The notes under the pieces were generated by a model that saw only the letters and a program-made list of their open reading frames with translations, did not search any database and was not told where the DNA came from. A DNA stretch of 64,000 nucleotides from Blasia pusilla. Taxonomy: Eukaryota. Shown piece by piece: positions 888 to 49,181 of the stretch. The stretch covers positions 34,906,001 through 34,970,000 of the forward strand of contig CM114271.1 in NCBI GenBank assembly GCA_050084515.1. The letters are read 5' to 3'. Both the position numbers and the translations under genes were made by a program. The first letter of the stretch is position 1. Every line of letters starts with the position of its first letter.

Positions 888-1500
888 CCCAAGGCTCCCT
901 CCTTGACTCTCGGTCAATAGTAGAAGGTCAAGGGTCACTTTCAAAAATATGAATTCAAATATGCTTATAATAGGAATTTACTTAAAATAGTGAGCTCCTT
1001 GGTATGACTGTGAATGACCCTGAACAAGGGGAAACTTGCTCTCTCAGGTTATCCTCGACCACTTGAGGCTATCCTCCAACCTCCTCGAAGACAAATCAGG
1101 GATTCTTGTCACTTTGCTATAAAAGATATGACAACTATCATGTGCATACAAATCGGTATCATCAAACATAAACAGATAGACACAAAATACCATACTGACT
1201 CGTGACATCTAAATACAAAGACAATTGTATGTGTACCAAAATATCTCTTAACGTCCCTCTCGTGAGTGGTTATATATCTCTACCTCCAGATTGTCATCTA
1301 TCCCTACCTACCATGATGACACTAAGAGCAAAAAGGTTGGGTGCTCACGCGGCCCCATCATTGATTGTTTTCTTTTCATACATGTTACTAATATTAGTCT
1401 AGATCTATGACTACCTTGTATCTACTTTGTGTACATCTCGTGCACATCTATCGATCATCCCTGAGGAACCCTAGCTAGAGGTGGTATCAAACATGCTATG
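888..1500 (-). mobile_element. 3' end of an old DNMT/PHD Gypsy copy: PHD C-terminus, 3' UTR, B, spacer, partial A
   Basis: Minus strand gives HIACLIPPLARVPQG at ~1455-1500. The 3' UTR matches 13890-14060. B lies at ~1136-1250 and the B|A junction at 1131-1140. Confidence 0.75.
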
Positions 1501-2182
1501 TGCTACCCCCTCTTGGACATTCATTATAGATCAATTTTAGCAAACAGCTTGGACAAGCAAAAAATGGAAAACGCCCTTGCCCAATTTGGGAGGTGGGTCG
1601 AGTCTTTTCTCGTACACTATCAGCGGACTATTTTCAATAAATTCAATGGTTGGTTTAGAAAGCTGAGAAGAAATACACTACTAGGTTTCTAGTTAAATGT
1701 CATTTTAGGGAGTTTTAGCTCTAGTGGCCAACTGTGAATGACAAAACCAAGGGTTCACAAGGCGGGAAAATCAAACAATAGGCAAGAATTGGCGCCTTTA
1801 ATTGCCACAACCATTCCAATAACTTATAGAGAAATTACTCTTGAGGTTGGAAAAATACCACCAAATAGCAATAGTCGTTGAAAGATAGGGGACAATAATA
1901 GATAATGTGGCTACTATTGAGAAGATCTACAAAAGTCATTAGGTCAATCCAACTACAATTTTGCTTGGAACAAAATGCTTCATCTACCCTAAAGCTGATC
2001 CAGACAATAGGAGCTATATGATAAGGGAGATTGACCAACTTCACATAGAGAATGTCCATACATTTCTTCTTGAAAATCCTTATACCCTCAAAGAGACATT
2101 TTGTGTTATGGTTGATATAGTTTATTTGTGCTTCGAGGAAAAAAACAATGAGATCTCTCCGAAGCTCTCACATTCAAGTATC

Positions 2183-2701
2183 TATCACGTCTTTTAGGAT
2201 AGATCATTGAGATCTAGTAGAGGCCTTTGTGAGTAGTGGAGAACAGGCTCAATAGGTTGAAGATGACATGTTGAGGCCTCACGAAACCTGAGAGAGCAGT
2301 TTTCCCCTTCGTTTCGGCTCATTTGGAGCCATATTGAGGAGCTTACTATTTTAGGTAAGTACCATTTTGAGTATATGATCAACTTTATATTTTTGGTAAG
2401 TGGACCTTGACCTCCTACATCAGGTCAAGAACCAAAGAGGTGACTTGGGAGCATAGGTTACCATGGAGAGAGCTTGGGAGAGGGGAGGGGTATACCTCAA
2501 GGAGAGAGAGCTTGAGAGCTCATTCTGTCTTTGTTGAACCTCTTGGCATTAGGCGGCGGAGCTATGGTCTTGATTGCCTTGTGTGTGTAACCCAAGCCTC
2601 TCATTAGGAGAGTGGGTTTGGTTTGACATTGAGAGAGACATGTGAGAGTGCACACATGTGAGCACTATGGTGTTGTGAGAGAGATTGGATCTTATTTTAC
2701 A
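2183..2701 (+). repeat. Terminal repeat A alone (5' end of element), followed by a putative self-priming site and leader
   Basis: Runs tatcacgtcttttaggatag ... gatcttattttaca and aligns with the A part of 12451-12968 and of the solo copy at 41494-42129. It is not followed by B. Confidence 0.85.
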
Positions 2702-5700
2702 AAGAGAGAATGAGTGAGTGAGAGAGCTTCATGGGGAGCTCCCTGGTTGCTCGATGTTTGGTGCAGTTGGGGGACTGTCTTCCCCGCTTCATGGCTCATG
2801 GGAGTGCTCAACGGAGCAAGAGCCGTGCGAGTTTGCTGTTTTGCTTTGCTGATTTTTTGTACGGGAGAGTGGCACGCGGTAGCACTACCCAATTTTCGAT
2901 AGGAATTGAGTATGGGGGAGGATTGCTCCATGTCGGTGCTCTTGTTTCTACCAATCCATCAAATCTTTCTTTGTGAAAGTTGGGAAAAGTGGGTGTCTAG
3001 ATTAATCCACTACATTGGATGGTAGTGTTGTGAATAAAAACCCTTACTTAAAAATGCCAGAAGATTCAAAGCCATACACACCCGCCATCCACTTTGCTAG
3101 TTCTTGTCATTCAAGCAAGCTAGATCCTGTGGACGCCCACCTAACTTCAACAGTCACTCTTCATATTCACACAAGCTTCCACATTGTTTGTTCTAGATTT
3201 TATGAGATTGATATTGTTGGGTTGAATTTACCTTACATTTTGCGTTAGGGTGTCTTTGATAATCCAGAAGTGATATTTTTTTGGTGATCTTGTATTTTCC
3301 TCATCAAGCTTTCATGTTGATTTGTAGACTTTCTACATGCGCACCATTCTCAGCTTCTTGGTCTACTTATGACAACTCGATTAGGTTTTGTTTCTACCGT
3401 ACGTACTCTATTTCATGATATTCTCGATTACTTTTCTATTTTTTTTCAATATTGTGCACTTACATTTGCTTCCCCCATATCATGTATTTTGCATCTAAAA
3501 CTAGGTTAGTGACAAATAAAAGAACAACAAGTAATTTCCCATAACACCATTTATTGTTGTATGTTATAGAATTATGGATCTCTTTATAGAATGATTGAGT
3601 ATATCTACAAGCCTACCATCACCATGGTTATGTGGACTTCGCTCTTTGCATTTCTTTATCCACACTTCCATCTTCAAGTTACTCACCCTCACTATTGATA
3701 CTAATTAGCATGGAATTCGGTTAGTCTGCCCTTCCTTGCAAACCAAAATGATTTTTAATAACTTAAAAAAATATATTTTTCATTTAAAAATGTAAATATA
3801 ATTTCAACTTGAAATTCTTAAATTTTAAAAGAGTAATAAAATTTCATTTAAAAATAATTTCATTCCTCAATGAAAATTCAAATAATATCCAACTCCCCTG
3901 AATAATTTCATCATTGCATAAAATTTCAAACAATACATACTATTCCCCTTCCACTTCTCTCACCAAAATAACATCAACTAACTAAATCATTAGTTAATTT
4001 TAATTAATAAAGTGATTTCCATTTTCCATTCAAATTAAAATTTCTTTCCCAAAATATCAATTTTGACTTAAAAAAACTATATACATATATTTTAAATAGT
4101 AATCAGATTTTTACTGCAACATTTAAATTACTTTTTTTATTTTCTTAAATTATATTAAAAGAGTAATAACATGATTCCACTCTTTTAAAGAATTCCACAC
4201 CATAATTAGAATTTAAATAATACCCCACTCCCCTTAATAATTTCACAATTCCATAAATTTAAAAATAAAAATTCACTAATAAATTTTAGTCCATCAAATA
4301 TCTCGTTTTTTCCGTTAAATTTTATTTCTTTTATCGTCAATTTGATTCAGAATTAAAAAGTAAGAGATCATTATTTATCTTTATTATTTCATTACTCATG
4401 TGTTTCTTCCATTCATTATTTCTTCACATCAAATACGGATGTACAATTTCAAATACCCATTTTAAATGTCTGATGTCCTCCGATGGGTCTCTTCGTTTCC
4501 GCCCGGCATCTCATGAGCGGGTCCCATCGACCCGCGCACCCTGCCCAGTTGCAACCGTAGGCCCGGTCGAAGAATGGCGTCGTTATTTTCCTCTTTTTCT
4601 TTGCCGGTTTAGGATGATAACCGGGAACGGGTAGAACCAGTAGCGCCTTGCTTTCTAGCGGCACGAATCCAGAAGTGACCCGGAACCTGAGTCCTCGGTG
4701 GCTTGGGAGAGCGGGCCGTGGACTCCGTTACAGCGGTACTGGTACATACAGTGCATGGATGGAAAGGTTACGTGCGTGCTAGGACAACGTTGGTGTTCAT
4801 TCACTCGAAGATTGCCGAACCGAATCTTGGTCACGCGAAGACCGACCTTCTTCCCGAGCGCGATTGTTTGCGAAGCGCGCGCAGATGATGGCGGCGAATC
4901 GTGCAGGACCATTTCGGTGGAGTGGCGATCCGGGTCGATCGGTCGGTGTGTCGATCGCCCGGGTGGAGTGGAGTGGCCGGTGGAAGTATGGAGGTTGCGA
5001 GCAGAGCGTCAGAAAGGCTGGCTTTCTTGAGCGAGCGTCATGGGGGCCGGTCAGTCGATTCAGACAACATGCCGAACGGAGGCGCCGGAGAGTGGTCGTT
5101 GAATACGTGTGTCATGGATGTTTCCGACTTGCGAAGAAGCGTTCAGGGCATGACTGTTCCACCCCTGCTTCCGCAATCTCATCTGTGATTTCCGCGAGCG
5201 GATTTGGGAGTGGTTGATGCATTCTTAACCACACGGTTCGTTTCGTTTAGGTGCTAGCGAGTCTCGCCTTTTAAGCACGAGCGCGAGTTCGTCCCACACC
5301 GCGCTTTGTTCTATGGGATGAATCGAGGAATCATATTTATATCGTTAGCATTTAGTGTGGAGTGAATTCCACGAGTACCGAGTTGGTCATAATCGATTTA
5401 ACGTACTGTGTGAATGTTGTAGTACCATGTGACCGGCATTCGCCATGGAAAGAGTGTCGAGCTTGAGAACAAGGAGAGTTATGGGGAGGTGCGTGTTTAA
5501 AGAAACGTGCATGCGCACTCGAACTTTCATGGAGTTCTAAGCATGCCATTGGAAGACAGCACCGACTACTTGGCTGTCACATGGGAGGCTGTGCTCTTCT
5601 CCCTGTATTACAAGGTTTCTCCTTGGTATGACCGACAGGCGAGGAAGACATTACGTTCTCCGTAGCATGATGCCCGGGTTCTTGACAGTGAAGCCCTTCC

Positions 5701-8700
5701 TGGTCGCCCGGGGCACCGAGGAGAGATACCACGAAATCCAATAACGACGCACGAATGCCAGCCCGGCGTTTCTGCGAGAGGGCACCGATACGTAAACATA
5801 TGACGCGGAGATGAGAGGTTCTAATACACCGGACCGCGACATGAATGCATGAGCCCTCATGCTCATATTTGCCCCTTGATTCGAGCTTTAGGAGGCCTTG
5901 AATCTGACCCTAAACCTTCATGGTTGCGTCCGAACGTTAAGTTTTCTTTTTCCTCCTGCAGCTGACTTTCTAGTTGTGAATTGACTTTTCCTCTATGCCT
6001 ACGAAATGGCCGGTGATCTAGCTCATACTGTCGAACTTTTATCACACATCTACTACAATTTTCATATCGAATGACGTCGCAACCACCGCTCCATGGATGA
6101 TGCTTATTGAAATTACGCTATTGAAGCGTCCACAACGGTGACGTCACGTTCAAAGCACCCCGTAAGAGTAGAGCACAATTTGGGATGCGAGAGAGTTCTG
6201 TGTGCGAAAATGTACAGATCTCGATAGCTAGAAAGTTCATGTATGGGATCGAAACCGGAAGGCTGAAGTGTCGCCACCGTCAAAGGGTCGTCATGTTATG
6301 TGGCAGGGACTTTAGGAGGTAATCCCGTGTCATTCACGAACAGTCCGAGAGTCATTCCAGATCTGGACTCGCACGTGGACTCCGGATTTGGGTGACCAGT
6401 GATGTCGGAGGATAAGAGAAAGTGAGGATTTAGGTCAGAAGTTTTGACGAGGATCCCGAAAGGTCTTGAAGGTGGAAATTGGATTGAGAAATTGGGAAAT
6501 CATCACGATATCCGGGATCAGATTCTGAAGCTGGAACTGGATCTCGTAAACTGGAAAATTGTCACGACCGAACAAGGAACGAGTGCAGTCTCCCATCGAA
6601 GGGGTGAGCAATGAACCAGCATAAGTTTCCATCACGAGAGAAAATGATCCGTGCTACAATGTGAGAGGCAAGTCAAAGCAGGTAACAAGGAAATGGACAA
6701 GCCTTCTTGACGCTGTCCAACATTTTATATGGATTTTTTGAGTGTTCTAGTCTTTATGGTAAGTTTCGTAAGTAGATCACGAGAGCGTTCATGGGGATCA
6801 CCACATAGCAAGATAGGTAAAGTCAAAACTTTAGCAAGCTGTAAAGACGTAAGATGGGAGTCACGATTGGTAGATGAGACGATAGGCATGTTCTCAATTC
6901 CAGGGGTTGGGTTAGAAAATGTTGGGGAACAACTTAGGAGGCAATGAGTTAGTACCAAGACGAATGATTGTTAAGGATTGAGCATCATATGTCGGTATGG
7001 GGTGAAAGAAATTTTAGACATGACCCATCCGCCACTAGGCTTCTCTCATATACAATCAAAAATGATAATGATTATTATTATTGGAAAGTGTCTCTTCATT
7101 TTAACAAAGGTCTTTTATAGCAATAGAGTCGCCCGTTATGTGAGCCAATAAGATTGGTCAAATTCAATTATACACATAGGATGGGTAATTCAAAATCAGA
7201 CATAGTGGGATCAAGGATATCATGAATCTATGTTTACACTATGGTCCTTTTACAACCCCTATAATTATATGAGAATGTGGGGGAGAGGTAATGAATGTTT
7301 CACACCAAGGCTTGGATTAGAGCAAGGCCAAGTCTTCTATTTGGATTTTTTTAAGGACATCAATTTATGGACTAGTTATGGTAACCATGAAGAATTCAAA
7401 TAGATAATAGCTTACTTCAAAATGTTCTAATCTATAATAGAAATTTTGTTGGCCAATTTACCATTTCATCAATCCAATTCAAATATTATTTCTAACTATT
7501 GGCAAGTGAAATTGATTTGGCCCAAAAAATATGGTAAATTTTAGTATTGTATAAATTCGTTACAAACAAAACAAGAAAATTAAAACTTTGGATTTTATAG
7601 AATCCAAGTTGGAATAAGCTCCTATGAGGTTATAGTTGATGTTAATTATGGTGGGACTCTAGTAATTTATCTTATAACTTCTTGCACTTATCTTATTGCC
7701 TTCCCATAATAGAAAACTAGTATAAGTTGTACAATTCACAGGTTTATATTATCTCTCATAATTAATTTTCATAATTTTTGAGTGCCATTTAAATCAATTT
7801 TGAGGTATCCTATTGGTTTAGAAGGTGAGCGATCTCATTGGCTTAAAGTGCCAGGTGTCAAGAGGAGAAGAGTCTGTAAAATAAAGGGACATCTCCAATA
7901 ATATGATGATTTTAAAACATATTTCCTCTTTGGAAAGAACTCCACAGTGATATGAAAGCGATATATATATATATATATGTCAATCAAAGACTTCTAAGAG
8001 TAAGGAATAAAATTTAAACCTACAAGGTTGAAATCATAATCCTAGAATGAAATTCCAAGGGTAGGGTTGATAATCTAAGTTATGGCTAATTTTTTTCTCT
8101 CTCATAGTGTTGTGGCTCTGTCGCTATTGCAATGTGGCTTCCGAGACTCGAAGAATTGCTCTAAATGTAGTAGTGTTTGATAGAACTTATCCCTTAGGCA
8201 TGTTCCATTGTATCTGGCATTAAGAGACTTTGGCCCAACTTATGACTCGATCACTTCTATCAACTAGTATAACTATTTTGAAATATATTCATTTGTGATA
8301 TCTCCATCTATTCTCAACGAGGGATAGATAATTGGAATCCATCTATTCTTCTTTGTACATTTATTCTCTTTATTTTAGGTCTTTTTGCTAACCTGATATT
8401 ATCTCTGTTTGTTTTTTCATCCATCATATTCTTCATTCAAAGTCTCCCATCCATAAGGCTAGCTTCTATCCTTTCCTATTCCATCCCATTCCCTGGATCT
8501 GATACTTTATTCATGCTCCATCAACTATTCTACCTATCCATTTTGTGGATACATCGAGTGGCACTACCTTCTATTATTTTGATCTTGTACTAAATTTTCT
8601 TGCCATGAACGCAACTATGAATTTCAAGTTTATCCCAATTCTCCATCCCTATCTATCCATGAAATGGGGCATCATGGATAGATAGGGATATGATCATGAT

Positions 8701-9130
8701 GGGGATTTCATGGGTTTGATCTTAGGTCCATATCTCAATCCATTTCACATTCATAAGTTCCATTATGGCTTATCCATAGAGAATCCAGATCCCAAATCCT
8801 TCCCGAGAATTCTTTGAGCATGAATCATAGGGACACAAAATAATATCCCATTATTTAACAATGTTGGGCATAGAATCATTATCATGATACTAATACTTTT
8901 ACAATCATACAATGCATTGAGTGAGAGGGACCGACCCTCTCTAGAGTGCAATCCTTCAAAGAGGATCCGTTTGTCTTTTTTCTCTAGTTCTCGTTTGGAT
9001 GTCCCCTCCTTGAGAGTCCTCATCTACGCTAGCCTTCCCTTTTCAAAGAATGGATAGCATGGGAGGAAGGTTCATATATTCCTCTTCTCATATCCTATCT
9101 CCCAACCATATCAAAATTTCATTCCATATT

Positions 9131-10415
<1,285 letters not shown>

Positions 10416-10619
10416 GTTGGTGATAAGGTCCCTCTAACTCAAGATATCCATCCATCCTTACCTACCATAACTTACATCTCTAGGAAGCTAAGAGCAAAAA
10501 GTTCAGATACTTATATGGCTTGATCGTTAGTCGCCTTCTTATCATCCATGTCACAAACAAAAGTATGAATCAGATTCTATGTCTATCCATTCTTTACTAT
10601 ATGTACATCTGAGGCATAT

Positions 10620-12278
10620 TCATTGTTCTTGAGAAAACTTACTGAAAGGTGGCGTCAGACATGCCATGTGCCACCCTCTCGAACATCCATCATAGACTAG
10701 CATAGTGGATGCAGCACGGGAAAAATCACACAACATACAACGCAAGTATGTAGAGACTATTGTTGAGCTTAGATAAAAAAATACCATCAATGTTAGGAAG
10801 GTGACATGACGCACAATGACATACAGGGTCCTTCCAAACCATACCATCCTTTCCCTCTAATAAGAGAACATCAAATGACAACACATCACACACTCTCAAG
10901 AAAAAATCCCCTACATTCACATCCAATGTCATAGGTGCCATTTATTGCAAGTAGATATTTTCTCCCTGATAAAACCTTTAGATCTTCGGTCGAAAATCAC
11001 CTCTCCAAATAATTGCATACTTCAAAGTATCCCGATGCTATGCAATCACCAATTGCAAGTTCTCAAACGCCATGGGCATAACGCTCCTAAAAAACTCAAC
11101 CCTATGAGAATATGCTCACATCTATACATCAGGGTCATCAAGATTCAACACCTCGCTAGTATCGCAACAAATAGCTATAGGTAAATTAGACTCTCGACCA
11201 TAAAGCAAAAAATACGGTGAGAAAAAAGCTAAGGGTACGATGTATGCTTGCTAAATCTATATCCCATCGCTAATCACAAAAATTGTAGGTCCCAATCTCC
11301 TAGGTGATCTCTTTGCAAGTCATACTTGCACAAATCTCTCTTCACCGTCAAAACAACTCTCTCAACTAGACTATCCGCCTCAAGATGATCTCGCGAAGTA
11401 GTGGGATAGTTTATCGACGCCCAATCACACAAGATCTAAAAACTCCCCAAAAAATTCCATACCCTGGTCTATCAACACCTTAGTTGGTCTGCCATAATGA
11501 CTCAACACTCAATCCAGGAAGATATATACTACTCCCTCACTCGCTTTGTCTGGCAATGCAGCCAACTCTATCCACTTTGAGAGGTGCTCGACCATCACCA
11601 ACACATAGAGACTATGATGCTAAGTCAAAGGTAAAGGTCCTACAAAATCCAGAATCCATCTATAGCCTAAATCCATGATCGATAGTGGATGGAACTATGG
11701 AGTAAGAGCATTGAATGAATTCCAGACTCGATCATGCACTATGTATCCAACAATAAATTGTTGAAAGTCAGTCTGCATGCCTCGACACCCATACTATATC
11801 TAGAACAAGTTGTACGTCTACTTCATTCCAAAGTGACCAAACTCCACATAGGCATGCTTCACCAAACATGCTCTCTGCGAAGGATGAGGCACTATGCGTA
11901 CTCTACCATCCTCCTAAACTCACAACATATGCATCCTCTTCCCACTGAAACCGTTTGGCTCGATGTAGCATCCAATCCCCCTCTCTAGCACCTACTATGC
12001 TCGTGATGCTACAAGTACGTAAGAGCGAAAAGAGTACTCCATCCTCCTGAATATCTCAACCACTTGTCATCTTCTCATCGGCCTCTAGATCTGAGGACTC
12101 TTTGTCGGTCCTCGCCATTCAAGTCCCAACACTCTCGCTCTACGTAGCCAACCATCCCAAACAGGTCGATGCGTGCTATCCCACACCATATCCTTATCAC
12201 TCTCTCCATACCAACGAGCACTAGTCACATCTCGTTGACTTGAGCATGGGTTACAGATGAACCCATTTGTATCCAGGT
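10620..12278 (-). pseudogene. Decayed Gypsy DDE integrase plus C-terminal PHD finger
   Basis: Minus strand across frameshifts: (N)LDTNGFICNP RNase H/IN linker, GHFGMK (HHCC), WILDFVGPLPLT, VLIDQGMEF, DSLVERVV, then LRCMLCDFSRAASTMLVYDGCSRGWHMACLTPP. Confidence 0.85.
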
Positions 12279-12323
12279 TGTCACGTCTTTTAGGATAGAT
12301 CGATGAGCTCTAGTAGAGCGCCT
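12279..12323 (+). repeat. First 45 bp of repeat A (left end of a younger nested copy)
   Basis: tgtcacgtcttttaggatagatcgatgagctctagtagagcgcct; left flank aggt (ACCT on the minus strand). Confidence 0.85.
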
Positions 12324-13053
12324 TGTCGTGCACATACACATCGCTACACAACATACATTGCTGTCACCAAACACACACAAAAACACGCACAATCCCATGC
12401 TAACTCATGGCATCCAAACAACGAGACAAGAAGTACCAAAATATCTCCAATAAAATAAGTTCAAATCTCTCTCACAACACTATAATTCTCACATGTGTAC
12501 ACTCTCACATGTTTCTCTCAATATCAAACCAAACCCACTCTCGTGATGAGAGGTTTGGGTTACACACACAAGGCAAGCAAGACCATAGCTCCTCAGCCTC
12601 ATGCCAAGAGGTTCAACAAAGAGAGAATGAGCTCTCAAGCTCTCTCTCCTTGAGGTATACCTCTCCTCTCCCCCAAGTTCTCTCCATGGTAACCTATGCT
12701 GCCAAGTCACCTCCTTGGCTCTTGACCTGATGTAGGAGGTCAAGGGTCACTTACCAAAAATATAACATCGATCGCATACTCAAAAGGATACTTACCTAAA
12801 ATAGTAAGTTCCTCAATATAGCTCCAAATGAGCCGAAACGAAGGGAAAACCTGCTCTCTCAAGTTTCTCGGGGCCTCAGCAGGTCATCCTCGATCTACTT
12901 AGTATGTCCACTGCTACTCACGAAGGGGCTCTACTAGATCTCACCGATCTATCCTAAGAGATGTGACAGTTGTCGTGCACCACGGGCAGAACCACACAAC
13001 ATACACCGCAAGTCTGTAGGAACTATTGCTAAGCTCAGATCAACTATATTGTC
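12324..13053 (-). mobile_element. Nested 3' end of a third copy: PHD fragment / deleted B1 / spacer / A2 / B2
   Basis: B 12324-12450, A 12451-12968, junction gtgaca-gt-tgtcgtgca 12963-12979. This is fused through a tgca microhomology to PHD-region sequence at 12980-13053. Confidence 0.85.
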
Positions 13054-13888
13054 AGAGTTCCGCGGGGAGTTTCAGGCCTTGCGTGATCAGACACTGATTG
13101 ACCACTACACTACTTCACGAGATCATCCTAAGGCGGATCGACTAGCGGAGCGGGTTGTGCAGACGGTGAAGAGATGACTACGCAAGTATGGCTTGCAGAG
13201 AGGTCACCTAGGAGATTGGGACCTCTAGTTGCCGTGGTTGGCGATGGGATACAGATTCACCAGGCACGCATCCTTAGCGTCTTTCTCACCATACTTGATT
13301 TTGTATGGCCGAGAGCCAGATTTACTTGCGGCTATTCGTTGAGATGTTGAACCTTGATGACCTTGATGTATGGATGCGAGCATGTTCTCAAAGGGCTGAA
13401 TTATTCCGGAGAGTAATGCCCATGACGTTTGAGAACGTGGCGATTGCGCAACATCGGGATATATTGAGGTATGCGACTATTCGGGGATGTGGTCATCGAC
13501 CTACTATCCGGAGGTTCCATCAAGGACACTATGCTTACATATAGCAGACGGCATCCACGACGTTGGATATGACTACCGGGCGTTCCATCTTGAGAGTGCG
13601 TGAGGTTTTACCATCAGGTGTTCTCTTATTGGAGGGACACGATGGTATGGTTGGAAAGACCATGTGCGTAACTATGCGCGGTGTCACCTTCCGAACATCG
13701 ACAATACAGTTTATCCGAGCTTAACAGTAATTCCTGCAGGCTTGCGATGTATGTTGTGTGGTTCTGCCCATGGTGCAGCCACTATGCTAGTCTGTGATGG
13801 ATGTTCGAGAGGATGGCATATGGCATGCTAGATGCCACCTCTCACTAGGATTCCTCAGGGAGGACGGATGTGTCCCAAATGTACATAG
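13054..13888 (+). pseudogene. Decayed Gypsy integrase C-terminal half plus PHD finger
   Basis: EFRGEF...HPKADRLAERVVQTVKR...FSPYLILYGREP, then CMLCGSAHGAATMLVCDGCSRGWHMAC*MPPLTRIPQGGRMCPKCT* (Cys4-His-Cys3). Confidence 0.9.
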
Positions 13889-14055
13889 AGTAGGTAGTTC
13901 TATATTCCGACTTGTGTATGTTACATGGATGACAAGAAGGCGACTAACGATGGGGCCACATGAGCATCCAACCTTCTTGCTCTTAGTGTCTGAGAGATGT
14001 ATGTCATGGTAGGTAAGGATAGATGGCTATCTGGAGTTAGAGGGATCTAACCATC

Positions 14056-14069
14056 AGGTAGGGGGGCGA
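14056..14069 (+). promoter_or_regulatory. Polypurine tract immediately 5' of repeat B
   Basis: aggtaggggggcga directly precedes ttggagatatttt. Equivalent degenerate tracts occur at ~10405 and ~1250 on the minus strand. Confidence 0.75.
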
Positions 14070-14197
14070 TTGGAGATATTTTGGTACTTCTTGTTTCGTT
14101 GTTTGGATGGCATGAGTTAGCATGGGATCGTGCCTGTTTGTGTATGTGTTCGGTGACAGCGATGTATGTTGTGTAAGCGATGTGTATGCGCATGATA
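14070..14197 (+). repeat. Terminal repeat B (B1)
   Basis: ttggagatattttggtac...gcgatgtgtatgcgcatgata is the reverse complement of 12324-12450; followed by AACT. Confidence 0.9.
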
Positions 14198-14720
14198 AAC
14201 TGTAGAGTTGGATCTAAAGAAGGTGGAAGCTAGGATTCAAAACATACCACACTTCCTAGTTTTTTACTTTGTCCGAGGCGATAATGATCCCATCTCAGTA
14301 CATGGATGTTAGTTGTGCGCAGGCATGACGGGAAATGGAAGAATTGAGTAGTTGATCCGGTGTTGAGTGTGTTGTTGGCATGGGGCCGACTACTGCTATA
14401 TAAGATGCCCCATAGTTTGCAATAGTTGCATTGGGAGGTACGTCCGCCAAGTTTTTTTGGCTGGTCGCTACGCTATGTGAGTGTGGAAATGGTATCACTG
14501 CCTCATGTTCCAAGGTGGTTGTAGAGGAGGTGGTGGACTTGCCTTTCGAGCCTATGCTCGGGTTGTCCATCTCAGATTCACGGCAAGTTGCAACTTCTAA
14601 GATTGCGGTGATGCCCACTAGACTCGTGAGAGAGCATGTCATGGTGTCTCCACAAGTTGTTTTGTTGGATAATTGGGGAGAGATCTTCCAATTGGTAAGC
14701 CTAGGAGGTAGGGAGTGTTA

Positions 14721-15095
14721 ATCTTGTTGGATTCAAGAACGCAACCCTTGATGTTGGGGAAAGCTGGGTTTACAAGATTGGGCTTGACAAGGGCCAATGC
14801 GGAGTATTGCCCATTCATGATACCAAAATCCTTACGTGGAGCGGGCACGATACAGTTTATAACCTGACATGAGGTCATGGTGAGGATTTGACCAGACATC
14901 CTTCAGATGAGTCCGTGGTGAGAGCCAAGGCGATAATGATCGATGTCGAGTCTTATGATGTTTTGGTTGGAGGAGCAGTGTTGTACTTAGTAGGATTAGA
15001 TTTGGATTACAGGAAGGAGTCACCATCCTACGGACCAAGATGGAATTCGGGTGATGGGCAACTTAGCTCGTTACTCATTCGGTTTATGAGTGGAG
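14721..15095 (+). pseudogene. Retrotransposon aspartic protease relic
   Basis: ILLDSRTQPLMLGK (DSG mutated to DSR) ... SYDVLVGGAVLYLVGLDLDY. Confidence 0.75.
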
Positions 15096-15439
15096 TGATT
15101 GAGCAACGATAATGAGAGATGGCGACTCATGCAGCATTTAGCAGCGCGATTATGTGGCCTAAGGATTTGATTGAGAGTCGTGTCCACAGAGAGTAGACAC
15201 CCGTGACCAACACCCCTATGGAGAGGAGTGCTATCGTGGGAACATCATTCTATGAAGGAGAGGTGCCTTTGTAGGGCTTGAGTGGGACGCTTTGACGCTT
15301 GGTGGAAGAGCATGTGCAGATGGTGCATGTGGAGTGAGATGTTTGCCTTAGAGCGTGACGGGTTAGAGGAACCTGAGGTAGTTGGGAGTGCTACCATGTC
15401 TCCCTTGGACACCTTATCCATTGTATGGCGCATCCTAGA

Positions 15440-16030
15440 TGAGGGTATTCAAGTGTTGGATCTCTTTGAAGGGATCAACACTAGGTTGGCTAAAGTTTTG
15501 CAAGTAGGAATCCGTGTGCAATAGTACTTGTACATGAAGCTTGATGAGGTTGTAAGGCACTTCTTACTTCAACATGTGGTGAAGTTGGGCCTCCATTTTC
15601 GTGACTTTGTTATCTGCGTCGGACGTGTAGGGATACTAGAGTTCCTTACTAAGGGAAATTTCTTTGGTGGGGGCACATGAATCGAGTCGGGTGGGGATTC
15701 TTGATTTGGTCATTATAGGTTGGCCATATTAGGGCCAATCAAGTATTGGAAGAGCTAGTGGTTTAGTGCACAAATTGTCTGGGTTATTTTGGAAGAGGAT
15801 CTTGCGATACTCGTAGGCAGTTAAAAACATCATTCCTGATCTCTAGCTTACATTCTGGATGCGTACCAATCTTAGGTGATTTGCGGTCATGAGTGGTGAA
15901 GAGTGCACATTCCGTTCGTACATGAGTCGACCATGCAATATTTTAGGATGCGGCAAGCGTGGGTTCACAAGCACATCGCTGGCGTCTATAGTGGACCAAC
16001 TTGGTGCTACATGAGGTGTTGTGCAACGTT
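15440..16030 (+). pseudogene. DNMT3-like C5 cytosine DNA methyltransferase domain embedded in Gypsy pol
   Basis: Ordered motifs: I IQVLDLFEGI (~15447-15476); II YLYMKLD; IV DLVIIGWPY*GQS (15703-15741, from GWPCQG); GL...SGLFW; VI AYILD/..PILGD (~15845-15880, frameshifted ENV); VIII DAASVGSQAHRWRL*WTNL (15947-16003; compare DNMT3A DAKEVSAAHRARYFWGNL). Motif X is not recognisable. Confidence 0.85.
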
Positions 16031-16444
16031 GGATGAGGTTACAACATGTCGATCACGGTTGTTATACTTGTGAGCCCCATGCCTACCAATACGGCCCATA
16101 AAATGGTTGGGGGCGAGACCCGAGAAGATCGACATATCATGGATGAGCAGGAGAGACACCCTTGGACTTCTTGGAATGCTTTGCAGGTATGCTGGGAGAT
16201 AGTAGCCATAACATCGAGGATGGCATATGATCCTCCAGACCGAGGACATGAGAGTTCTAAGTTAGCTATAGGAGAGCAATGGAGTGTTATTGTTCGAGAT
16301 GGGGTTGCACCATCGCAAGCACGGATACTCATGCCAAAGAGTCCTACAATAGTCACGATGGAGACTTGGGAGCCAAATATAGACGTTGAGTTGTCTAGAG
16401 GAGATCAGCGTCGAATACCTTAGTTCCTTAGGAGTCATAGGAGT

Positions 16445-18028
16445 TTTTTTACATTCAATATGCATGATTTTGGTACATTGAAGGGTCGGAGGATTTGCAT
16501 TGAGTTGTCTAACAATACATTGATCTTCCGATGACCCAAAAAAAAGATTGAATACGGGCAAAGTCCGTGTCCGCAGACTTGACATGTCCATGTCCGTGGA
16601 CTTTTGTCCGTCCTTAAGATGAACATATCTATGTGGGTGCGGGTACCGACAGCCCGCACCTCAACCCGCCCCACCCACAATGTAGCCCCGGGTTTGAGCC
16701 GCCCACTAGGCCACATCTAGTCTAAGAAGCGTCACCAGCTTTGTAGTCGGCATTGGCCTGCGTAGGGCGGGCTATGGTTTGTGGTTTGCATAGGGTCAGT
16801 TCAGGCCAAGGCGGGCTTAGGGCGCGCCAATTTTTGCCCGCCTCCCTTAATTTGAGCGTACACCAGTTCCCATCCGGGCCATGGGGGTACCAAAAAGATC
16901 TAGGCGGGGGATCTATTTGGCATGTCTGTTTCTGTGCAACCATGCCTACAAGTACATTGATATGGAGAGGGTCCTCAAAGCAAGAGCCATGACTTTTTTG
17001 GAGCAACACTAGTGGAGATGTCGCATGAAGAATATGCATCTGCCACTATTATGCCCACAAAGAATGATGTTCATCGCAAGTGGACAGATACCATTAACTA
17101 TTTCAAATTGGAAGACAAGAAGAATACGATATTTTGGGGCATCAATCCTCACAAGAAGGACTATTTTGTTCAGGTGGCAATTCTTACCATTTTCGTTAAG
17201 GACCGCACGTGGAGAGATCGAGAGGGTAATGGATAAGATCTTGGCAGGTCTGGATTTTGCTAGGTGTTATATTGATGACATCGTAGTCTTCAGCGCAACA
17301 ATTGAGGAGATTTGGACATTTGGAGGAGATATTTCGACAATTACAATTACATGGGTTAAAGCTACATCCATGTAAGTGCAAATTCTTTTATGACCAGATT
17401 GAGTACTTGGCTCATAGGATATACCCATGTGGCCTTGGTGTTCAATAATGAAGGTAGAGGCTATCTCACGCATTCCACGCCTTATAGATATGAGTCAAGT
17501 TTGCGCATTTATGAGACTAGCGCGCGAACTTTTATAGACGGTATATAAAGGGTTTTAGTTTGATTGCGAAGCCACCAACCTTGTTGGCCAAGGTGGATCA
17601 CAAGTGGCACTGGGACAATGAGCAAGAGAAAACATTCCAACTGCTCAAGGATAGGTTGACGTCCATGCTGATGTTAAGGGGACCTATCGAGTGTGTCTCT
17701 TTGAGTCGCATACAGATTTGAGTATGTTGTAACAGTGCTCACCCAACATAATGTTGAGGGTAGAGAATTCATGATTACTTATACTAATCGCTCGAACAAT
17801 GCTGTAAAGGCGAAATATTGCTCGTTTGGGACGAGTGCTTGATTGTAGTATGGATCATCGCACATTTTAGGTATTATTTATTCACAAACCCTTTTACCAT
17901 TATTATTGATATCAACCACTTAAATGGTTGATGGAATTTGACTAGCTTAGAGGGAATCTTGCGTGGTTGGCTCTATCGTTGTAGGAGCATGATTTTCAAA
18001 TGGTGAATCGAATGGGGATGCTGAACCT
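16445..18028 (+). pseudogene. Gypsy reverse transcriptase and RNase H relic, interrupted at ~16538-16944
   Basis: FR*P|YKYIDMER, LVEMSHEEYASATIMPTK, MDKILAGLDFARCYIDDIVVFS (YIDD 17268-17279), HTD and YTNRSNN RNase H motifs; ends MLN at 18028. Confidence 0.9.
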
Positions 18029-18669
18029 TGTCGTGTGCATACACATCGTTACACAACATACATCGTTGTCACCGAACACACACAAACACGCATGGTCTCA
18101 TGCTAAGTCATGCCATCCAAACAACGAGACAAAAAATACCAAAATACTTCCAATGAAATAAGATCCAATCTCTCTCACAACACCATAGTTCTCACATGTG
18201 TGCACTCTCACATATCTTTCTCAATGACAAACCAAACTCATTCTCCTAATGAGGGGCTTGAGTTACATTCATAAGGCAAGGGACCATAGCTCCGCTATTC
18301 CGTGTTAAGAGGTTCAACTAAAAGAGAATGAGCACTTAAGCTCTCTCCTTGAGATATACCCCTCCCCTCCTCCCAGACTCTCTTCATGATAACTCATGCT
18401 CCCAAGTCACTTCCTTAGCTCTTAACATGACGTAGGAGGTCAAAGGATCACTTACTAAAAATAGAAAATTGACCATATACTCAAAATGGTATTCATATAA
18501 AATAATAAATTTCTCAATATGGCTACATATGAGCCGAAACGAAAGGGAAACCTGCTCTCTCAGGTTTCCCAGGGCCTCAATAGGTCATCTTCAACCTCCC
18601 GGATCTATCCTCCACTAATCACGAAGGCGAGCTCTACTAGAGCTCATTACTATCCTAAAAGACGTGACA
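18029..18669 (-). repeat. A+B terminal repeat unit (641 bp)
   Basis: tgtcgtgtgc...gacgtgaca; flanks acct (left) and agtt (right). Confidence 0.92.
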
Positions 18670-20863: not shown

Positions 20864-21052
20864 AACCCGAGGCTAACAGAAGGCCTCACCAAATGGTTGA
20901 AATTCTCATTGGTTCTACTCTAGTCCAACCCAAGGCTAACAAGAGGCCTCACCAAATGGTTGAAATTCTCATAGGTTCTACTCTAGTCCAACCCGAGGCT
21001 AACAGAAGGCTTAACCAAATGGTTGAAATTCTCATTGGTTCTACTCTAGTCC
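20864..21052. repeat. Tandem repeat, 63 bp x3
   Basis: aacccgaggctaacagaaggcctcaccaaatggttgaaattctcattggttctactctagtcc repeated three times with few substitutions. Confidence 0.95.
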
Positions 21053-41493: not shown

Positions 41494-42129
41494 TGTCGTG
41501 CGCATACACATCGCTATACAATATACATCGCTGTCACCGATACACACACACACAATCCCATGCTAACTCATGGCATCCATACACAGAGGCGAGAAGTACC
41601 AAAATATCTCCAATAAAGTAAGATCCAATCTCTCTCTACACCATCTCACACCATAGCTCTCAAAGGTGTGCACTCTCTCTCTCATGTCAAACCAAACTCA
41701 CTCTCCTAATGAGAGGTTTGGGTTACACTCACAAGGCAAGGGACCATAGCTCCGCCGCCTTATGCCAAGAGGTTTAACAAAGAGAGAATGAGCTCTCAAG
41801 CTCTCTCTCCTTGAGGTATACCCCTCCCCTCTCCCAAGCTCTCTCCATGGTAACCTATTCTCCCAAGTCACCTCCTTGGCTCTTGACCTGATGTAGGAGG
41901 TTAAGGGCCACTTAACAAAAATAGAAAGTCGATCATATACTCAAAATGGTACTTACCTAAAATAGTAAGTTTCTCAATATGGCTCCAAATGAGCCGAAAC
42001 GAAGGGGAAACCTACTCTCTCAGGTTTCTTGGGGCCTCAGTAGGTCATCCTTGACCTACTGAGCCTGTCCTCCACTACTCACAAAGGCGCTCTACTACAT
42101 CTCACCGATCTATCCTAAAAGACGTGATA
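41494..42129 (-). repeat. Solo A+B terminal repeat with 4-bp TSD GAGT, inserted in the chromovirus pol
   Basis: gagt|tgtcgtgcgc...gacgtgata|gagt. Removing the insert and one GAGT restores KALIRVKEILSQEPLLKL in frame. Confidence 0.95.
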
Positions 42130-48736: not shown

Positions 48737-49181
48737 TGTCACGTCTTTTAGGATAGATCGGTAAGATCTAGTAGAGCGCCTTTGCGAGAAGTGGAGGACA
48801 GGCTCAAGAGGTCAAAGATGACCTATTGAAGCCCCGGGAAATATGAGAGAACAGGTTTCTCCTTCGTTTCGGCTCATTTGGAGCCATATTGAGGAACTTA
48901 CTATTTTAGGTAAGTACCATTTTGAGTATATGGTCAAATTTCTATTTTTGGAAGTGACCCTTGACCTCCTACATCAAGTCAAGAGCCAAGGAGATGACTT
49001 GGGAGCATAGGTTACCATGGAGAGAGCTTGGGAGAGGGGAGGGATATACCTCAAGGAGAGAGAGCTTGAGCTTTATTGTCTCGTTGTTTGGATGCCATGA
49101 GTTAGCATGGGATCATGCGTGTTTGTGTGTGTGCTCGGTGATAACGATGTATGTTGTGTAGCGATGTGTATGCGCACGACA
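48737..49181 (+). repeat. A+B terminal repeat unit with internal deletion
   Basis: tgtcacgtctttt...tgcgcacgaca; ~200 bp spanning the A/B join is missing at ~49071; flanks gaga/cata do not match. Confidence 0.9.

What the first reader, a model, noticed from the sequence alone, without database searches (positions are those of the whole stretch)
2183..18669. Ty3/Gypsy with a DDE integrase but split direct repeats (A...B-A-B): integration ends lie inside the LTR
Seen: the 5' end is A alone (2183-2701). The 3' end is PPT-B-AC-A-B (complete at 10415 to 9131; partial at 888-1260 and 12324-12979). Solo units are A+B. The PPT abuts the start of B and the primer site abuts the end of A, so reverse transcription should make B+A LTRs. 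The A-B join (CTTATTTTA|TTGGAG) is what blunt ligation of those two cDNA ends would give. The host-joined ends are TGTCACG... and ...GCACGACA, which meet inside the LTR as the near-palindrome GACA-AC-TGTC. Established: A-coding-B-A-B termini are typical of tyrosine-recombinase elements (PAT, TOC1, kangaroo, Ngaro) that integrate circles without TSDs, whereas here there is an HHCC/D,D,E integrase and 4-bp TSDs. Inference: a 2-LTR circle is opened at the internal palindrome and integrated by the DDE integrase. I know of no described Gypsy lineage doing this but could not search. The 5' and 3' ends come from different copies.
Basis: partly seen in the sequence, partly recalled or inferred. Interest (0 to 1): 0.93.

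Follow-up and report, generated by a model that had tools for sequence, protein, structure and literature searches.

The report
Gypsy retrotransposon with split terminal repeats
The window holds decayed, nested copies of a plant Ty3/gypsy retrotransposon whose repeats are arranged A...B-A-B instead of as two equal LTRs; better-preserved relatives elsewhere show the same layout, which was noted once in print in 2018, but how it works is still unexplained.

Summary
In the window, A (about 518 nt) and B (about 127 nt) occur as solo A+B units, as PPT-B-2nt-A-B at three decayed 3' ends, and once as A alone followed by internal sequence.

Eighty related loci from metagenome contigs settle the anatomy. 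In 21 of 21 independent 5' ends, A runs straight into the internal region. About half of the 3' ends are PPT-B-2nt-A-B. Six of 8 complete copies of that form have perfect 4-bp TSDs at the TGTC...GACA ends.

The polyprotein is PR-DNMT-RT-RNaseH-IN(H2C2, rve)-PHD. No tyrosine recombinase was found.

New here: the 10-16 nt at the A/internal border are complementary to a site inside A that lies about 30 nt after a TATA box. This looks like Tf1-type self-priming. PPT and PBS therefore bracket B-2nt-A, while integration uses the junction inside it.

The A|B join varies between insertions (+1, +6, -2, +134 nt), as expected for a join made anew each time.

The circle-opening model is plausible but unproven. 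The absence of mirror forms argues against random opening of a symmetric circle.

The layout is already in print for KnitGypsy-Dnmt3 (de Mendoza 2018, legend of Fig. 4c), so this is a new member of a known kind.

The parts
2183..2701 (+). A1: 5' repeat of a 5'-end copy, with no B behind it
   Evidence: BLAST of A against the window. Sequence read. Very high copy number in the source organism's runs.
2491..2495 (+). TATA-like motif 28 nt upstream of the predicted RNA start
   Evidence: The same spacing (29-34 nt) is seen in 11 of 12 related loci.
2519..2534 (+). Site S inside A, complementary to the primer site. Predicted 5' end of the RNA.
   Evidence: 14 of 15 nt are complementary to 2702-2716. 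The mismatch at 2527 reads C in over 90% of laid contig depth. It also reads C in the A copy near 41792-41778.
2701..2716 (+). Self-priming-type primer binding site directly after A1
   Evidence: Homologous in position to the sites in L010, L057 and other loci.
2702..2950 (+). Remnant of the internal 5' leader. The copy is cut off near 2950-3000.
   Evidence: Summed contig depth is 519-812 in bin 2836-3002 and 0-2.3 in bin 3003-3169. It is 0-1.3 in the flank 1500-2167. Paralogous contigs cover 2696-2922.
888..1530 (-). Partial 3' end: internal 1530-1267, PPT remnant, B 1247-1145, 2 nt at 1135-1134, partial A 1050-898
9131..9265 (-). B2 of old element E
9266..10275 (-). A2 of E, expanded by a (CA)n microsatellite at about 9300-9860
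10276..10277 (-). 2-nt spacer (AC on the element strand) between the B1 end GACA and the A2 start TGTC
10278..10405 (-). B1 of E, preceded by a decayed PPT at about 10406-10420
10406..12278 (-). 3' half of E's interior: integrase (rve) and PHD finger. It starts at residue about 487 of relative P0010.
   Evidence: Pfam rve E 9.3e-8 and PHD E 2.1e-4. tblastn.
12279..12324 (+). First 46 nt of A of element I, which inserted into E. The TSD AGGT at 12275-12278 is ACCT on E's strand.
12324..13060 (-). Copy Z: B2 12450-12324, A2 12968-12451, 2 nt, the last ~10 nt of B1, then 85 nt of the PHD region. The rest of B1 was lost by a microhomology deletion.
13061..14068 (+). Copy W: integrase core end, PHD finger, and PPT at 14055-14068
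   Evidence: Pfam PHD E 8.5e-8. tblastn at 65-69% identity to P0010.
14069..14197 (+). B of copy W. The element stops at the end of B (unit-length A-internal-B form).
14198..18028 (+). 5' half of E: protease 14721-15109, DNMT remnants 15396-16006, RT-RNaseH 16352-18028 (to residue about 487 of P0010), with a foreign insertion at about 16544-16975. TSD ACCT at 18025-18028.
18029..18669 (-). A+B unit: 3' end of element I, abutting E's break
41494..42129 (-). Solo A+B with 4-bp TSD ACTC, inserted into an unrelated gypsy element
48737..49181 (+). A+B unit with an internal deletion and no TSD

Best explanation
The region is a graveyard of nested, old copies of one Ty3/gypsy lineage. Its polyprotein is PR - C5 DNA methyltransferase - RT - RNase H - DDE integrase - PHD finger. 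This is the 'Gypsy-DNMT3' kind.

The replication-competent integrated form is A - PBS - interior - PPT - B - 2 nt - A - B, flanked by 4-bp TSDs.

Proposed cycle:
1. Transcription starts inside A, about 30 nt after a TATA box.
2. The first 10-16 nt of the RNA are complementary to the site directly after A1, so minus-strand synthesis is self-primed, as in Tf1.
3. The plus strand starts at the PPT directly before B1.
4. Reverse transcription therefore makes a cDNA whose terminal repeats are B-2nt-A.
5. The integrase ends (TGTC... and ...GACA) face each other across 2 nt inside each repeat, like an IS circle junction.
6. To give A...B-2nt-A-B, the two cDNA ends (A end and B start) must be joined, and the integrase must open the junction in the left repeat. 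Two 3'-processing nicks 2 nt apart would do this.
7. The freed ends then insert with a 4-bp stagger.

Shown: the anatomy, the TSDs, the domain content, the PPT and PBS positions, and the variability of the A|B join.

Inferred: the RNA ends, the joining step (free 2-LTR circle or plus-strand end-to-end jump), and cleavage of the junction by the integrase.
For: 5' ends (de-duplication):
- 23 loci, about 21 independent, have A followed directly by internal sequence.
- None has B between A and the interior.

3' ends:
- 24 loci (20 independent) have PPT-B-2nt-A.
- The spacer is exactly 2 nt in 18 of the 18 joins examined (15 independent).

TSDs:
- 6 of 8 complete A...B-A-B copies have a perfect 4-bp TSD. 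The other 2 match at 3 of 4 positions.
- Window TSDs are ACTC and ACCT.

Domain content:
- Pfam on L010 finds DNA_methylase, RVT_1, RT_RNaseH, Integrase_H2C2, rve and PHD in one frame.
- The window has rve, PHD, and DNMT and PR remnants.
- No other Pfam family, and so no YR, appears in the 5' 1.75 kb in six frames.
- None appears in the three minus frames or one further plus frame of the coding part.

Self-priming site:
- There is an exact complement of 9-16 nt between the A/internal border and A position about 162-186 in 12 of 21 independent 5' ends.
- Only 0-4 of 200 shuffles reach the observed length.
- TATA lies 29-34 nt upstream of the site in 11 of those 12.
- Three families have different sequences but keep the pairing.
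- In the window, 14 of 15 nt pair. This becomes 15 of 15 with the majority letter at 2527.

The A|B join differs between insertions:
- Of 15 independent joins, 10 are exact and one (L014) has only a 5-nt deletion a few bases inside B2.
- The variants are +1, +6, -2 and, in one insertion (L029 = L030), +134 nt.
- The +134 nt repeat the sequence just upstream of and including the PPT.

Genome-wide support in the source organism:
- Loose ends in front of A carry the end of B plus 2 nt.
- The stretch after A is itself repeated.

Precedent from titles and abstract openings only: retroviral integrases cleave palindromic LTR-LTR junctions (PMC1180852, PMC1905944).
Against: - No circle, cDNA or transcript was seen. 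The RNA start and the polyadenylation site are predicted only.
- The mirror form A-B-2nt-A-internal-B is absent: 0 of about 21 independent 5' ends, against 11 copies of the observed form with a known 5' end. A symmetric circle cut at either junction should give both forms equally.
- About half of the 3' ends (21 loci, 20 independent) stop at B with no A-B behind. These could be direct unit-length insertions or B1 x B2 deletions, and the data cannot tell which. Only 3 of 8 such complete copies have a perfect TSD.
- 9 of 21 5' ends lack a clear exact complement. They are decayed copies, and the test required exact matches.
- The loci come from a few metagenome assemblies and two or three families, so they are not a broad sample.
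Confidence: 0.6

Rival explanations
1. The anatomy and reverse transcription are the same, but there is no free 2-LTR circle opened at random. There are two variants.
(a) The completed plus strand jumps end-to-end from the A end onto the B start of the same molecule. The integrase then cuts only the left junction.
(b) The integrase nicks both internal junctions of the linear or relaxed-circle cDNA and inserts the unit A-internal-B. The A...B-A-B form then needs an extra joining step.
For: - Mirror forms are absent: 0 of about 21 independent 5' ends.
- Unit-length A-internal-B copies are as common as A...B-A-B copies, with 20 against 20 independent 3' ends. Some have perfect TSDs: L005, L009 and L071.
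- Small extra or missing bases at the A|B join fit template switching as well as ligation.
Against: - Nothing seen here distinguishes an RT jump from ligation.
- Unit-length copies can also arise by B1 x B2 recombination. They carry fewer perfect TSDs, 3 of 8.
Confidence: 0.28
2. This is an ordinary LTR element with A+B LTRs at both ends. On this reading, the B in front of the 3' LTR and the missing B at the 5' end are local rearrangements, nesting or deletions in a decayed region.
For: - The window region is heavily nested and rearranged.
- The single 5' end in the window is truncated.
- Solo units are A+B with TG...CA ends.
Against: - 0 of about 21 independent 5' ends in related loci have B after A.
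- 20 independent 3' ends have PPT-B-2nt-A.
- This holds in at least two families only 45-70% identical in protein.
- There is no polypurine tract before the 3' A.
- The primer site sits directly after A.
Confidence: 0.02
3. This is a DIRS/PAT/Ngaro-type element that integrates a circle with a tyrosine recombinase. On this reading, the integrase-like domain is a relic.
For: The A-coding-B-A-B repeat order is the one described for such elements (PMC5890265, passages read).
Against: - No Phage_integrase or any other extra Pfam family was found in the elements.
- Integrase_H2C2 and rve domains are conserved.
- 4-bp TSDs flank the ends.
- The domain order PR-RT-RH-IN is that of Ty3/gypsy.
Confidence: 0.02
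4. The A...B-A-B form arises in the host genome. A unit-length element and a solo A+B, or two elements, would end up head to tail by targeted insertion or unequal recombination.
For: - Elements of this family do insert into each other in the window.
- L029/L030 look like A followed by a remnant of interior and then B.
Against: - The spacer between B and A is always exactly 2 nt, with no TSD-like 4 nt.
- The outer TSDs match across the whole A...B-A-B unit in 6 of 8 copies.
- A1/A2 identity (85-94%) and B1/B2 identity (88-96%) are similar within a copy.
Confidence: 0.05

Closest known systems
KnitGypsy-Dnmt3 of Klebsormidium nitens (de Mendoza et al. 2018, Nat Commun 9:1341, PMC5890265; section 9 and passages read)
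   Same: - It is a Gypsy-type Pol with a DNMT domain inside the polyprotein.
- Its repeats are 'the same as that of a DIRS retrotransposon', that is A-coding-B-A-B.
   Different: - No sequence comparison was possible, because no K. nitens sequence was at hand.
- The paper's main text gives no TSD, PBS, PPT or mechanism for this element, and treats it as an acquisition in the K. nitens lineage.
- Here, relatives carry source names from a liverwort, a moss, Closterium and chlorophytes.
- The window's organism holds the A repeat in very high copy number.
- I do not know whether KnitGypsy has the PHD finger. The figure and supplements were not visible.
DIRS-order tyrosine-recombinase retrotransposons with split direct repeats (PAT, Ngaro, TOC1-like; SymbioDIRS-Dnmt3)
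   Same: - The repeat order is A1-interior-B1-A2-B2.
- An internal B-A junction stores the sequence of both ends.
   Different: - Those elements encode a tyrosine recombinase. From recall, they make no TSDs.
- Here there is a DDE integrase, 4-bp TSDs and no YR ORF.
Tf1/Sushi group and plant Tcn1 clade of Ty3/gypsy (self-priming; Neumann et al. 2019, PMC6317226, passages read)
   Same: - There is no tRNA-type PBS.
- The site after the 5' repeat is complementary to a site inside the repeat that is placed like a transcript start.
   Different: - Those elements have ordinary identical LTRs and a chromodomain.
- Here the repeats are split and a PHD finger sits in the chromodomain's place.
- Phylogenetic relationship was not tested.
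Cleavage of the palindromic LTR-LTR junction of 2-LTR circles by retroviral integrase (PFV, HIV-1; PMC1180852, PMC1905944; titles and abstract openings only)
   Same: A DDE integrase opens abutted CA...TG ends inside a circle junction and frees integration-competent ends.
   Different: - In retroviruses the junction forms only by ligating the cDNA ends, and it is a side route.
- Here the junction is carried inside every repeat and would be the obligatory route.
IS3/IS911-type 'copy-out-paste-in' circle junctions (recalled, no call)
   Same: Two transposon ends abut across a few base pairs and act as the reactive substrate for a DDE enzyme.
   Different: Those are bacterial DNA transposons with no reverse transcription. 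This is a resemblance in logic only.

Membership tests
Ty3/gypsy (Metaviridae) LTR retrotransposons | Pol domain order PR-RT-RNaseH-IN with a DDE (rve) integrase and an HHCC zinc finger | tested here: met
   L010 has DNA_methylase, RVT_1, RT_RNaseH, Integrase_H2C2 and rve in that order in one frame. The window has rve, and the order is given by tblastn.
Ty3/gypsy (Metaviridae) LTR retrotransposons | Two equal LTRs bounded by a PBS and a PPT, with the LTR ends serving as the integration ends | tested here: not met
   The 5' end is A only in about 21 of 21 independent loci. PPT and PBS bracket B-2nt-A, while the TSDs flank A...B.
Ty3/gypsy (Metaviridae) LTR retrotransposons | Short target site duplication | tested here: met
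   Perfect 4-bp TSDs in 6 of 8 A...B-A-B copies and 3 of 8 unit-length copies. Two of 3 testable cases in the window have one.
DIRS-order YR retrotransposons (PAT/Ngaro type) | Tyrosine recombinase ORF | tested here: not met
   No Phage_integrase hit in L010: polyprotein frame, six frames of the 5' 1.75 kb, three minus frames and one further plus frame of the coding part. One plus frame was only partly scanned. The window itself was scanned only in the frames.
DIRS-order YR retrotransposons (PAT/Ngaro type) | Split direct repeats A1...B1-A2-B2 | tested here: met
   Window.
DIRS-order YR retrotransposons (PAT/Ngaro type) | Integration without TSD (recalled feature) | tested here: not met
   TSDs are present.
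Gypsy-DNMT3 (KnitGypsy-Dnmt3 kind) | C5 DNA methyltransferase domain inside the Gypsy Pol ORF | tested here: met
   PF00145 E 6.9e-9 between PR and RT in L010, and weak in L045. Remnants at window 15396-16006 match DNMT-bearing relatives at E 4e-10 to 1e-12.
Gypsy-DNMT3 (KnitGypsy-Dnmt3 kind) | DIRS-like A-coding-B-A-B repeats | tested here: met
Gypsy-DNMT3 (KnitGypsy-Dnmt3 kind) | Sequence relationship to the K. nitens elements | not testable with these tools
   No K. nitens sequence was returned under that name. The paper's supplements are closed.
Tf1/Sushi-Tcn1 self-priming elements | The 5' end of the transcript is complementary to the PBS | tested here: inconclusive
   The complementarity and TATA spacing were found. 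The transcript start was not observed.
Tf1/Sushi-Tcn1 self-priming elements | RT/IN phylogenetic placement in that clade, and a chromodomain | not tested
   No reference set (REXdb/GyDB) was at hand. The C-terminal domain is a PHD finger, not a chromodomain.

The most novel reading that the evidence does not exclude
A whole lineage of green-plant Ty3/gypsy elements has moved its integration ends into the middle of the LTR that reverse transcription makes. The linear cDNA would then be a precursor that must first have its ends joined, by ligation or by a plus-strand end-to-end jump. The DDE integrase would open a built-in, IS-like circle junction (GACA-NN-TGTC).

On this reading, the unit-length A-internal-B copies and some solo A+B units would be direct by-products of cutting both junctions. 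The element's own DNMT might mark which junction is used.
Probability: 0.4. Interest if true: 0.9.

Novelty: new member of a known kind. Interest (0 to 1): 0.68.

Why it matters
LTR retrotransposons and retroviruses are taught as integrating the ends of a linear cDNA. Circles are taught as dead ends.

In this lineage, PPT and PBS define one repeat unit and the TSDs define another. The standard pathway therefore cannot produce the integrated form.

If the joining-and-opening route is right, it links three things in one system:
- retroviral junction cleavage;
- bacterial IS circle junctions;
- the split repeats of tyrosine-recombinase retroelements.

That would make the function of split direct repeats testable with an ordinary DDE integrase.

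There are also practical consequences:
- LTR-finding software that expects two equal LTRs will mis-annotate or miss these elements. The A repeat is extremely abundant in the window's organism.
- The DNMT-carrying Gypsy kind is much wider than the one charophyte in which it was described. Source names include a liverwort, a moss, Closterium and chlorophytes.

Tried and rejected
- The genome search 'own': no genome is held for this window, so no genome-wide census was possible.
- Pfam by plain reference failed on stop codons. It was repeated with stops read as X.
- ORF listing found nothing of 150 aa or more except inside the microsatellite.
- BLAST of 2702-4500 against the window found no second copy. 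On window evidence alone, the 5' end could have been a truncated solo unit.
- tRNA search found none in the window or in 20 loci. No tRNA-type PBS (TGG...) follows A.
- I considered 14198 onward as a B-to-internal junction of a tandem form. I rejected this because 14198-18028 starts in the protease region and is the 5' half of a different, older element.
- I first tried an ordinary A+B LTR with a local duplication. The related loci rule it out.
- Read laying showed no contig bridging 2701|2702 among the pieces listed. Contigs tend to break at repeat borders, so this says nothing either way.
- Literature searches found no paper describing a DDE-integrase Gypsy with these repeats other than PMC5890265. 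The searches were:
  - 'split direct repeats' + integrase + gypsy: 8 papers;
  - 'knitgypsy': 1 paper;
  - 'gypsy-dnmt3': 2 papers;
  - PHD/DNMT/bryophyte terms: 9 papers;
  - Gypsy/Klebsormidium/DNMT/DIRS: 23 papers, 20 of them listed.
- Subscription journals, Repbase reports and supplements were not searchable.

Full report
**What is in the window**

Repeat finding and BLAST of the two units against the whole window give nine A copies or fragments and eight B copies. A is about 518 nt and runs T(G/A)TCACG...CTTATTTTA. B is about 127 nt and runs TTGGAG...GCACGACA.

No ORF of 150 aa or more survives outside a microsatellite, so all copies are old. Reading the sequence shows four arrangements:
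- **Solo A+B units.** One lies at 42129-41494 with TSD ACTC. One lies at 48737-49181 with an internal deletion and no TSD.
- **Interior-PPT-B-2nt-A-B.** The full form is at 12278-9131. A form in which a microhomology deletion joins the PHD region to the last bases of B1 is at 13060-12324. A partial form is at 1530-888.
- **Interior-PPT-B, then unrelated sequence.** This is at 13061-14197.
- **A alone followed by other sequence.** This is at 2183-2701.

**The region is nested**

tblastn with an intact relative, P0010, shows that 14198-18028 (+) ends at residue about 487 of that protein. It also shows that 12278-10406 (-) begins at the same residue.
- The first piece abuts the B end of an inverted A+B unit at 18029.
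- The second piece abuts the A start of a 46-nt A fragment at 12279.
- The four bases on either side are ACCT on the element's strand.

These are therefore the two halves of one element, split by another copy with a 4-bp TSD and later rearranged.

**Proteins**

With stops read as X, Pfam finds rve and PHD in the window copies and a weak RT_RNaseH hit.

A search with the integrase-PHD stretch found nine longer proteins with RT, RNase H, Integrase_H2C2, rve and PHD. Many cluster members come from metagenomes.

In the better-preserved locus L010, one frame carries, in order, DNA_methylase (PF00145, E 6.9e-9), RVT_1, RT_RNaseH, Integrase_H2C2, rve and PHD. A CCHC-type gag frame lies upstream, and a protease-like stretch lies between gag and DNMT.

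The window's older element has protease-like matches at 14721-15109 and DNMT remnants at 15396-16006. Together with a foreign insertion at about 16544-16975, this explains the long gap between protease and RT.

No other Pfam family, and so no tyrosine recombinase, appears in these L010 scans:
- six frames of the 1.75 kb between A1 and gag;
- the three minus frames and one further plus frame of the coding part.

**Related loci settle the anatomy**

No genome is held for the window. I therefore scanned metagenome contigs with an alignment of seven relatives. This gave 80 loci at 39-97% protein identity to P0010.

Repeats flanking pol were first found in 12 loci and then read at base level. Two families stand out. 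One is about 70% identical to P0010 and the other about 45-49%. Both show:

flank - 4 bp - A (TGTCATG...) - interior - PPT (a G run) - B (...CACGACA) - 2 nt - A - B - the same 4 bp - flank.

BLAST of family-specific A, B and leader references on all 80 loci gives the following:
- **5' ends.** A is followed directly by the leader in 23 loci. This is about 21 independent loci after removing duplicate insertions. L018 and L019 share coordinates. No B lies behind or in front of that A.
- **3' ends with A behind B.** PPT-B-2nt-A is seen in 24 loci, 20 independent.
- **3' ends that stop at B.** PPT-B followed by unrelated sequence is seen in 21 loci, 20 independent.

TSDs:
- Among 8 independent complete A...B-A-B copies, 6 are perfect: GGTC, TGAC, CCAT, CATA, AATC and AATG. 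The other 2 match at 3 of 4 positions.
- Among 8 complete A...B copies, 3 are perfect, 2 match at 3 of 4, and 3 have none.

It was not found in any locus.

**Where reverse transcription starts and stops**

The PPT abuts the first base of B1 in all 18 class-I 3' ends listed.

No tRNA-type site follows A, and no tRNA gene was available for comparison. Instead, the bases at the A/interior border are the exact complement of a site S inside A.
- The complement is 15-16 nt in L010, L022, L023, L030 and L066.
- It is 9-13 nt in seven more loci.
- In all, 12 of 21 independent 5' ends have it, with 0-4 of 200 shuffles reaching the observed length.
- The other nine are decayed copies with only 6-9 nt exact matches.
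- S lies at A position about 162-186, and TATA lies 29-34 nt upstream in 11 of the 12.

The three families, the window's included, have different sequences at S and at the border but keep the pairing.

In the window, 2702-2716 pairs with 2519-2533 at 14 of 15 positions, and a TATA lies at 2491. The one mismatch, at 2527, reads C in over 90% of the contig depth laid from the organism's own runs. It also reads C in the A copy near 41792-41778.

This is the pattern of Tf1-type self-priming. Neumann et al. 2019 predict self-priming for the Tf1/Sushi group and the plant Tcn1 clade (PMC6317226, passages read). The RNA start itself was not observed.

With the primer site after A and the PPT before B, the repeat that reverse transcription makes is B-2nt-A. 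The repeat seen by the integrase, judged from the TSDs, is A...B.

**The two kinds of junction behave differently**

The B-2nt-A junction has exactly 2 nt in 18 of 18 copies (AC, GC, AT or GT). It places ...GACA and TGTC... face to face.

The A|B join varies between insertions. Of 15 independent joins:
- 10 are exact;
- L014 has a 5-nt deletion a few bases inside B2;
- L055 has one extra T, which equals the first base after A1;
- L020 has 6 extra nt;
- L052 lacks 2 nt;
- L029/L030 (one insertion) has 134 extra nt that repeat the 134 nt upstream of and including the PPT. This is what a plus strand started too far upstream would give.

**Evidence from the window's own organism**

Five low-coverage runs hold parts of the stretch. 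Four were laid on 1500-6500 at 80% likeness.
- Summed contig depth is 0-1.3 in the left flank.
- It is 10^4 to 6x10^5 over A.
- It is 3.8x10^3 to 9.8x10^4 in the bin that spans the A end.
- It is 519-812 in 2836-3002, and zero or nearly zero (at most 2.3) in 3003-3169.

Contigs from paralogues cover 2696-2922. The stretch after A is therefore part of the repeated element, and this copy is cut off near 2950-3000.

Loose ends in front of 2185 have a consensus that is the end of B plus 2 nt plus TG (41, 19 and 15 records in three runs). The B-2nt-A junction is therefore common genome-wide in that organism.

**Mechanism**

The standard linear pathway cannot give A...B-2nt-A-B, because a B behind the right-hand A exists only if the A end of the cDNA is joined to its B start.

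The ends are joined and the integrase nicks after CA on both strands of a GACA-NN-TGTC junction. The nicks are 2 nt apart, which makes a break with recessed CA-3'OH ends. Insertion follows with a 4-bp stagger.

Retroviral integrases can cleave palindromic LTR-LTR junctions (PMC1180852, PMC1905944; titles and abstract openings only).

Two observations do not fit a simple symmetric circle.
- The mirror product A-B-2nt-A-interior-B is absent. It is seen in 0 of about 21 independent 5' ends, against 11 copies of the observed form with a known 5' end.
- Unit-length A-interior-B copies are as frequent as the full form.

The second observation may reflect cutting at both junctions, or at the single junction of a one-repeat circle. 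It may equally reflect later B1 x B2 deletion. The first observation suggests an asymmetric step, for example an end-to-end jump of the finished plus strand. These parts are inference.

**What is known**

de Mendoza et al. 2018 (PMC5890265; section 9 and passages read) describe KnitGypsy-Dnmt3 of Klebsormidium nitens. It is a Gypsy Pol with a Dnmt3-type domain. The legend of Fig. 4c says its repeat structure is that of a DIRS retrotransposon while its domains are those of Gypsy.

The main text holds no occurrence of 'circular' or 'target site'. It gives no PBS, PPT or mechanism for this element. The figure and the supplements could not be seen.

A 2026 preprint (10.64898/2026.05.21.726589, passages read) mentions 'streptophytes (Gypsy-DNMT3)' in passing.

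My other searches found no further description.

A search with the DNMT region of L010 returned relatives that sources name from Calypogeia fissa, Sphagnum magellanicum, Closterium species, Chromochloris and Monoraphidium. The kind is therefore much wider than one charophyte.

**Verdict**

The circle step is plausible but unshown and needs an asymmetry. The claim that no such Gypsy lineage had been described is wrong.

The window holds a decayed new member of a known but barely characterised kind. As far as my searches reach, the following are not in print:
- the self-priming site;
- the PPT/PBS-versus-TSD mismatch;
- the 4-bp TSDs;
- the variable A|B join;
- the unit-length form.

Noticed in passing
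window 9300-9860: A (CA)n microsatellite of about 560 nt, with interspersed AGAC variants, has expanded inside the A2 repeat of the old element.
   Followed up: no
window 41104-43444 (+): A second, unrelated gypsy element (25-40% protein identity to the relatives) is interrupted by the solo A+B unit at 41494-42129. About 150 residues of its RT-RNase H are missing across the insertion.
   Followed up: partly
window 16544-16975: A G+C-rich insertion of about 430 nt with short inverted repeats sits between residues 72 and 82 of the RT alignment. It may be a small non-autonomous transposon.
   Followed up: no
window 4450-6700: A G+C-rich, apparently single-copy stretch is covered by contigs with no or almost no differences in the runs. 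It has no long ORF and its nature was not examined.
   Followed up: no
window 3815-4264: An A+T-rich sequence of moderate copy number has an internal direct repeat (3815-3930 and 4142-4264). Summed depth reaches about 2000 in run X1.
   Followed up: no
window 20864-21053: There are three tandem copies of a 63-nt unit, 94-100% alike.
   Followed up: no
L029 10908-11041 and L030 13518-13651: 134 nt copied from just upstream of the PPT lie between A2 and B2. This is one insertion seen in two contigs, and it looks like a plus strand primed too far upstream.
   Followed up: yes
L045, L057, L074: A positions about 150-190: In the 70% family, site S is part of a short hairpin that contains both the primer-site sequence and its complement. 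This is reminiscent of the extra stems of Tf1 self-priming (recalled).
   Followed up: partly
L010 4647-6392; L045 4960-6182: There is a long leader of 1.2-1.75 kb with T-rich runs between A1 and gag. It has no Pfam hit in any frame tested.
   Followed up: partly
window 12279-12324 and L054 3677-3749: Short A-start fragments (46 and 73 nt) lie next to another copy. Elements of this family appear to insert into each other's A repeat.
   Followed up: no
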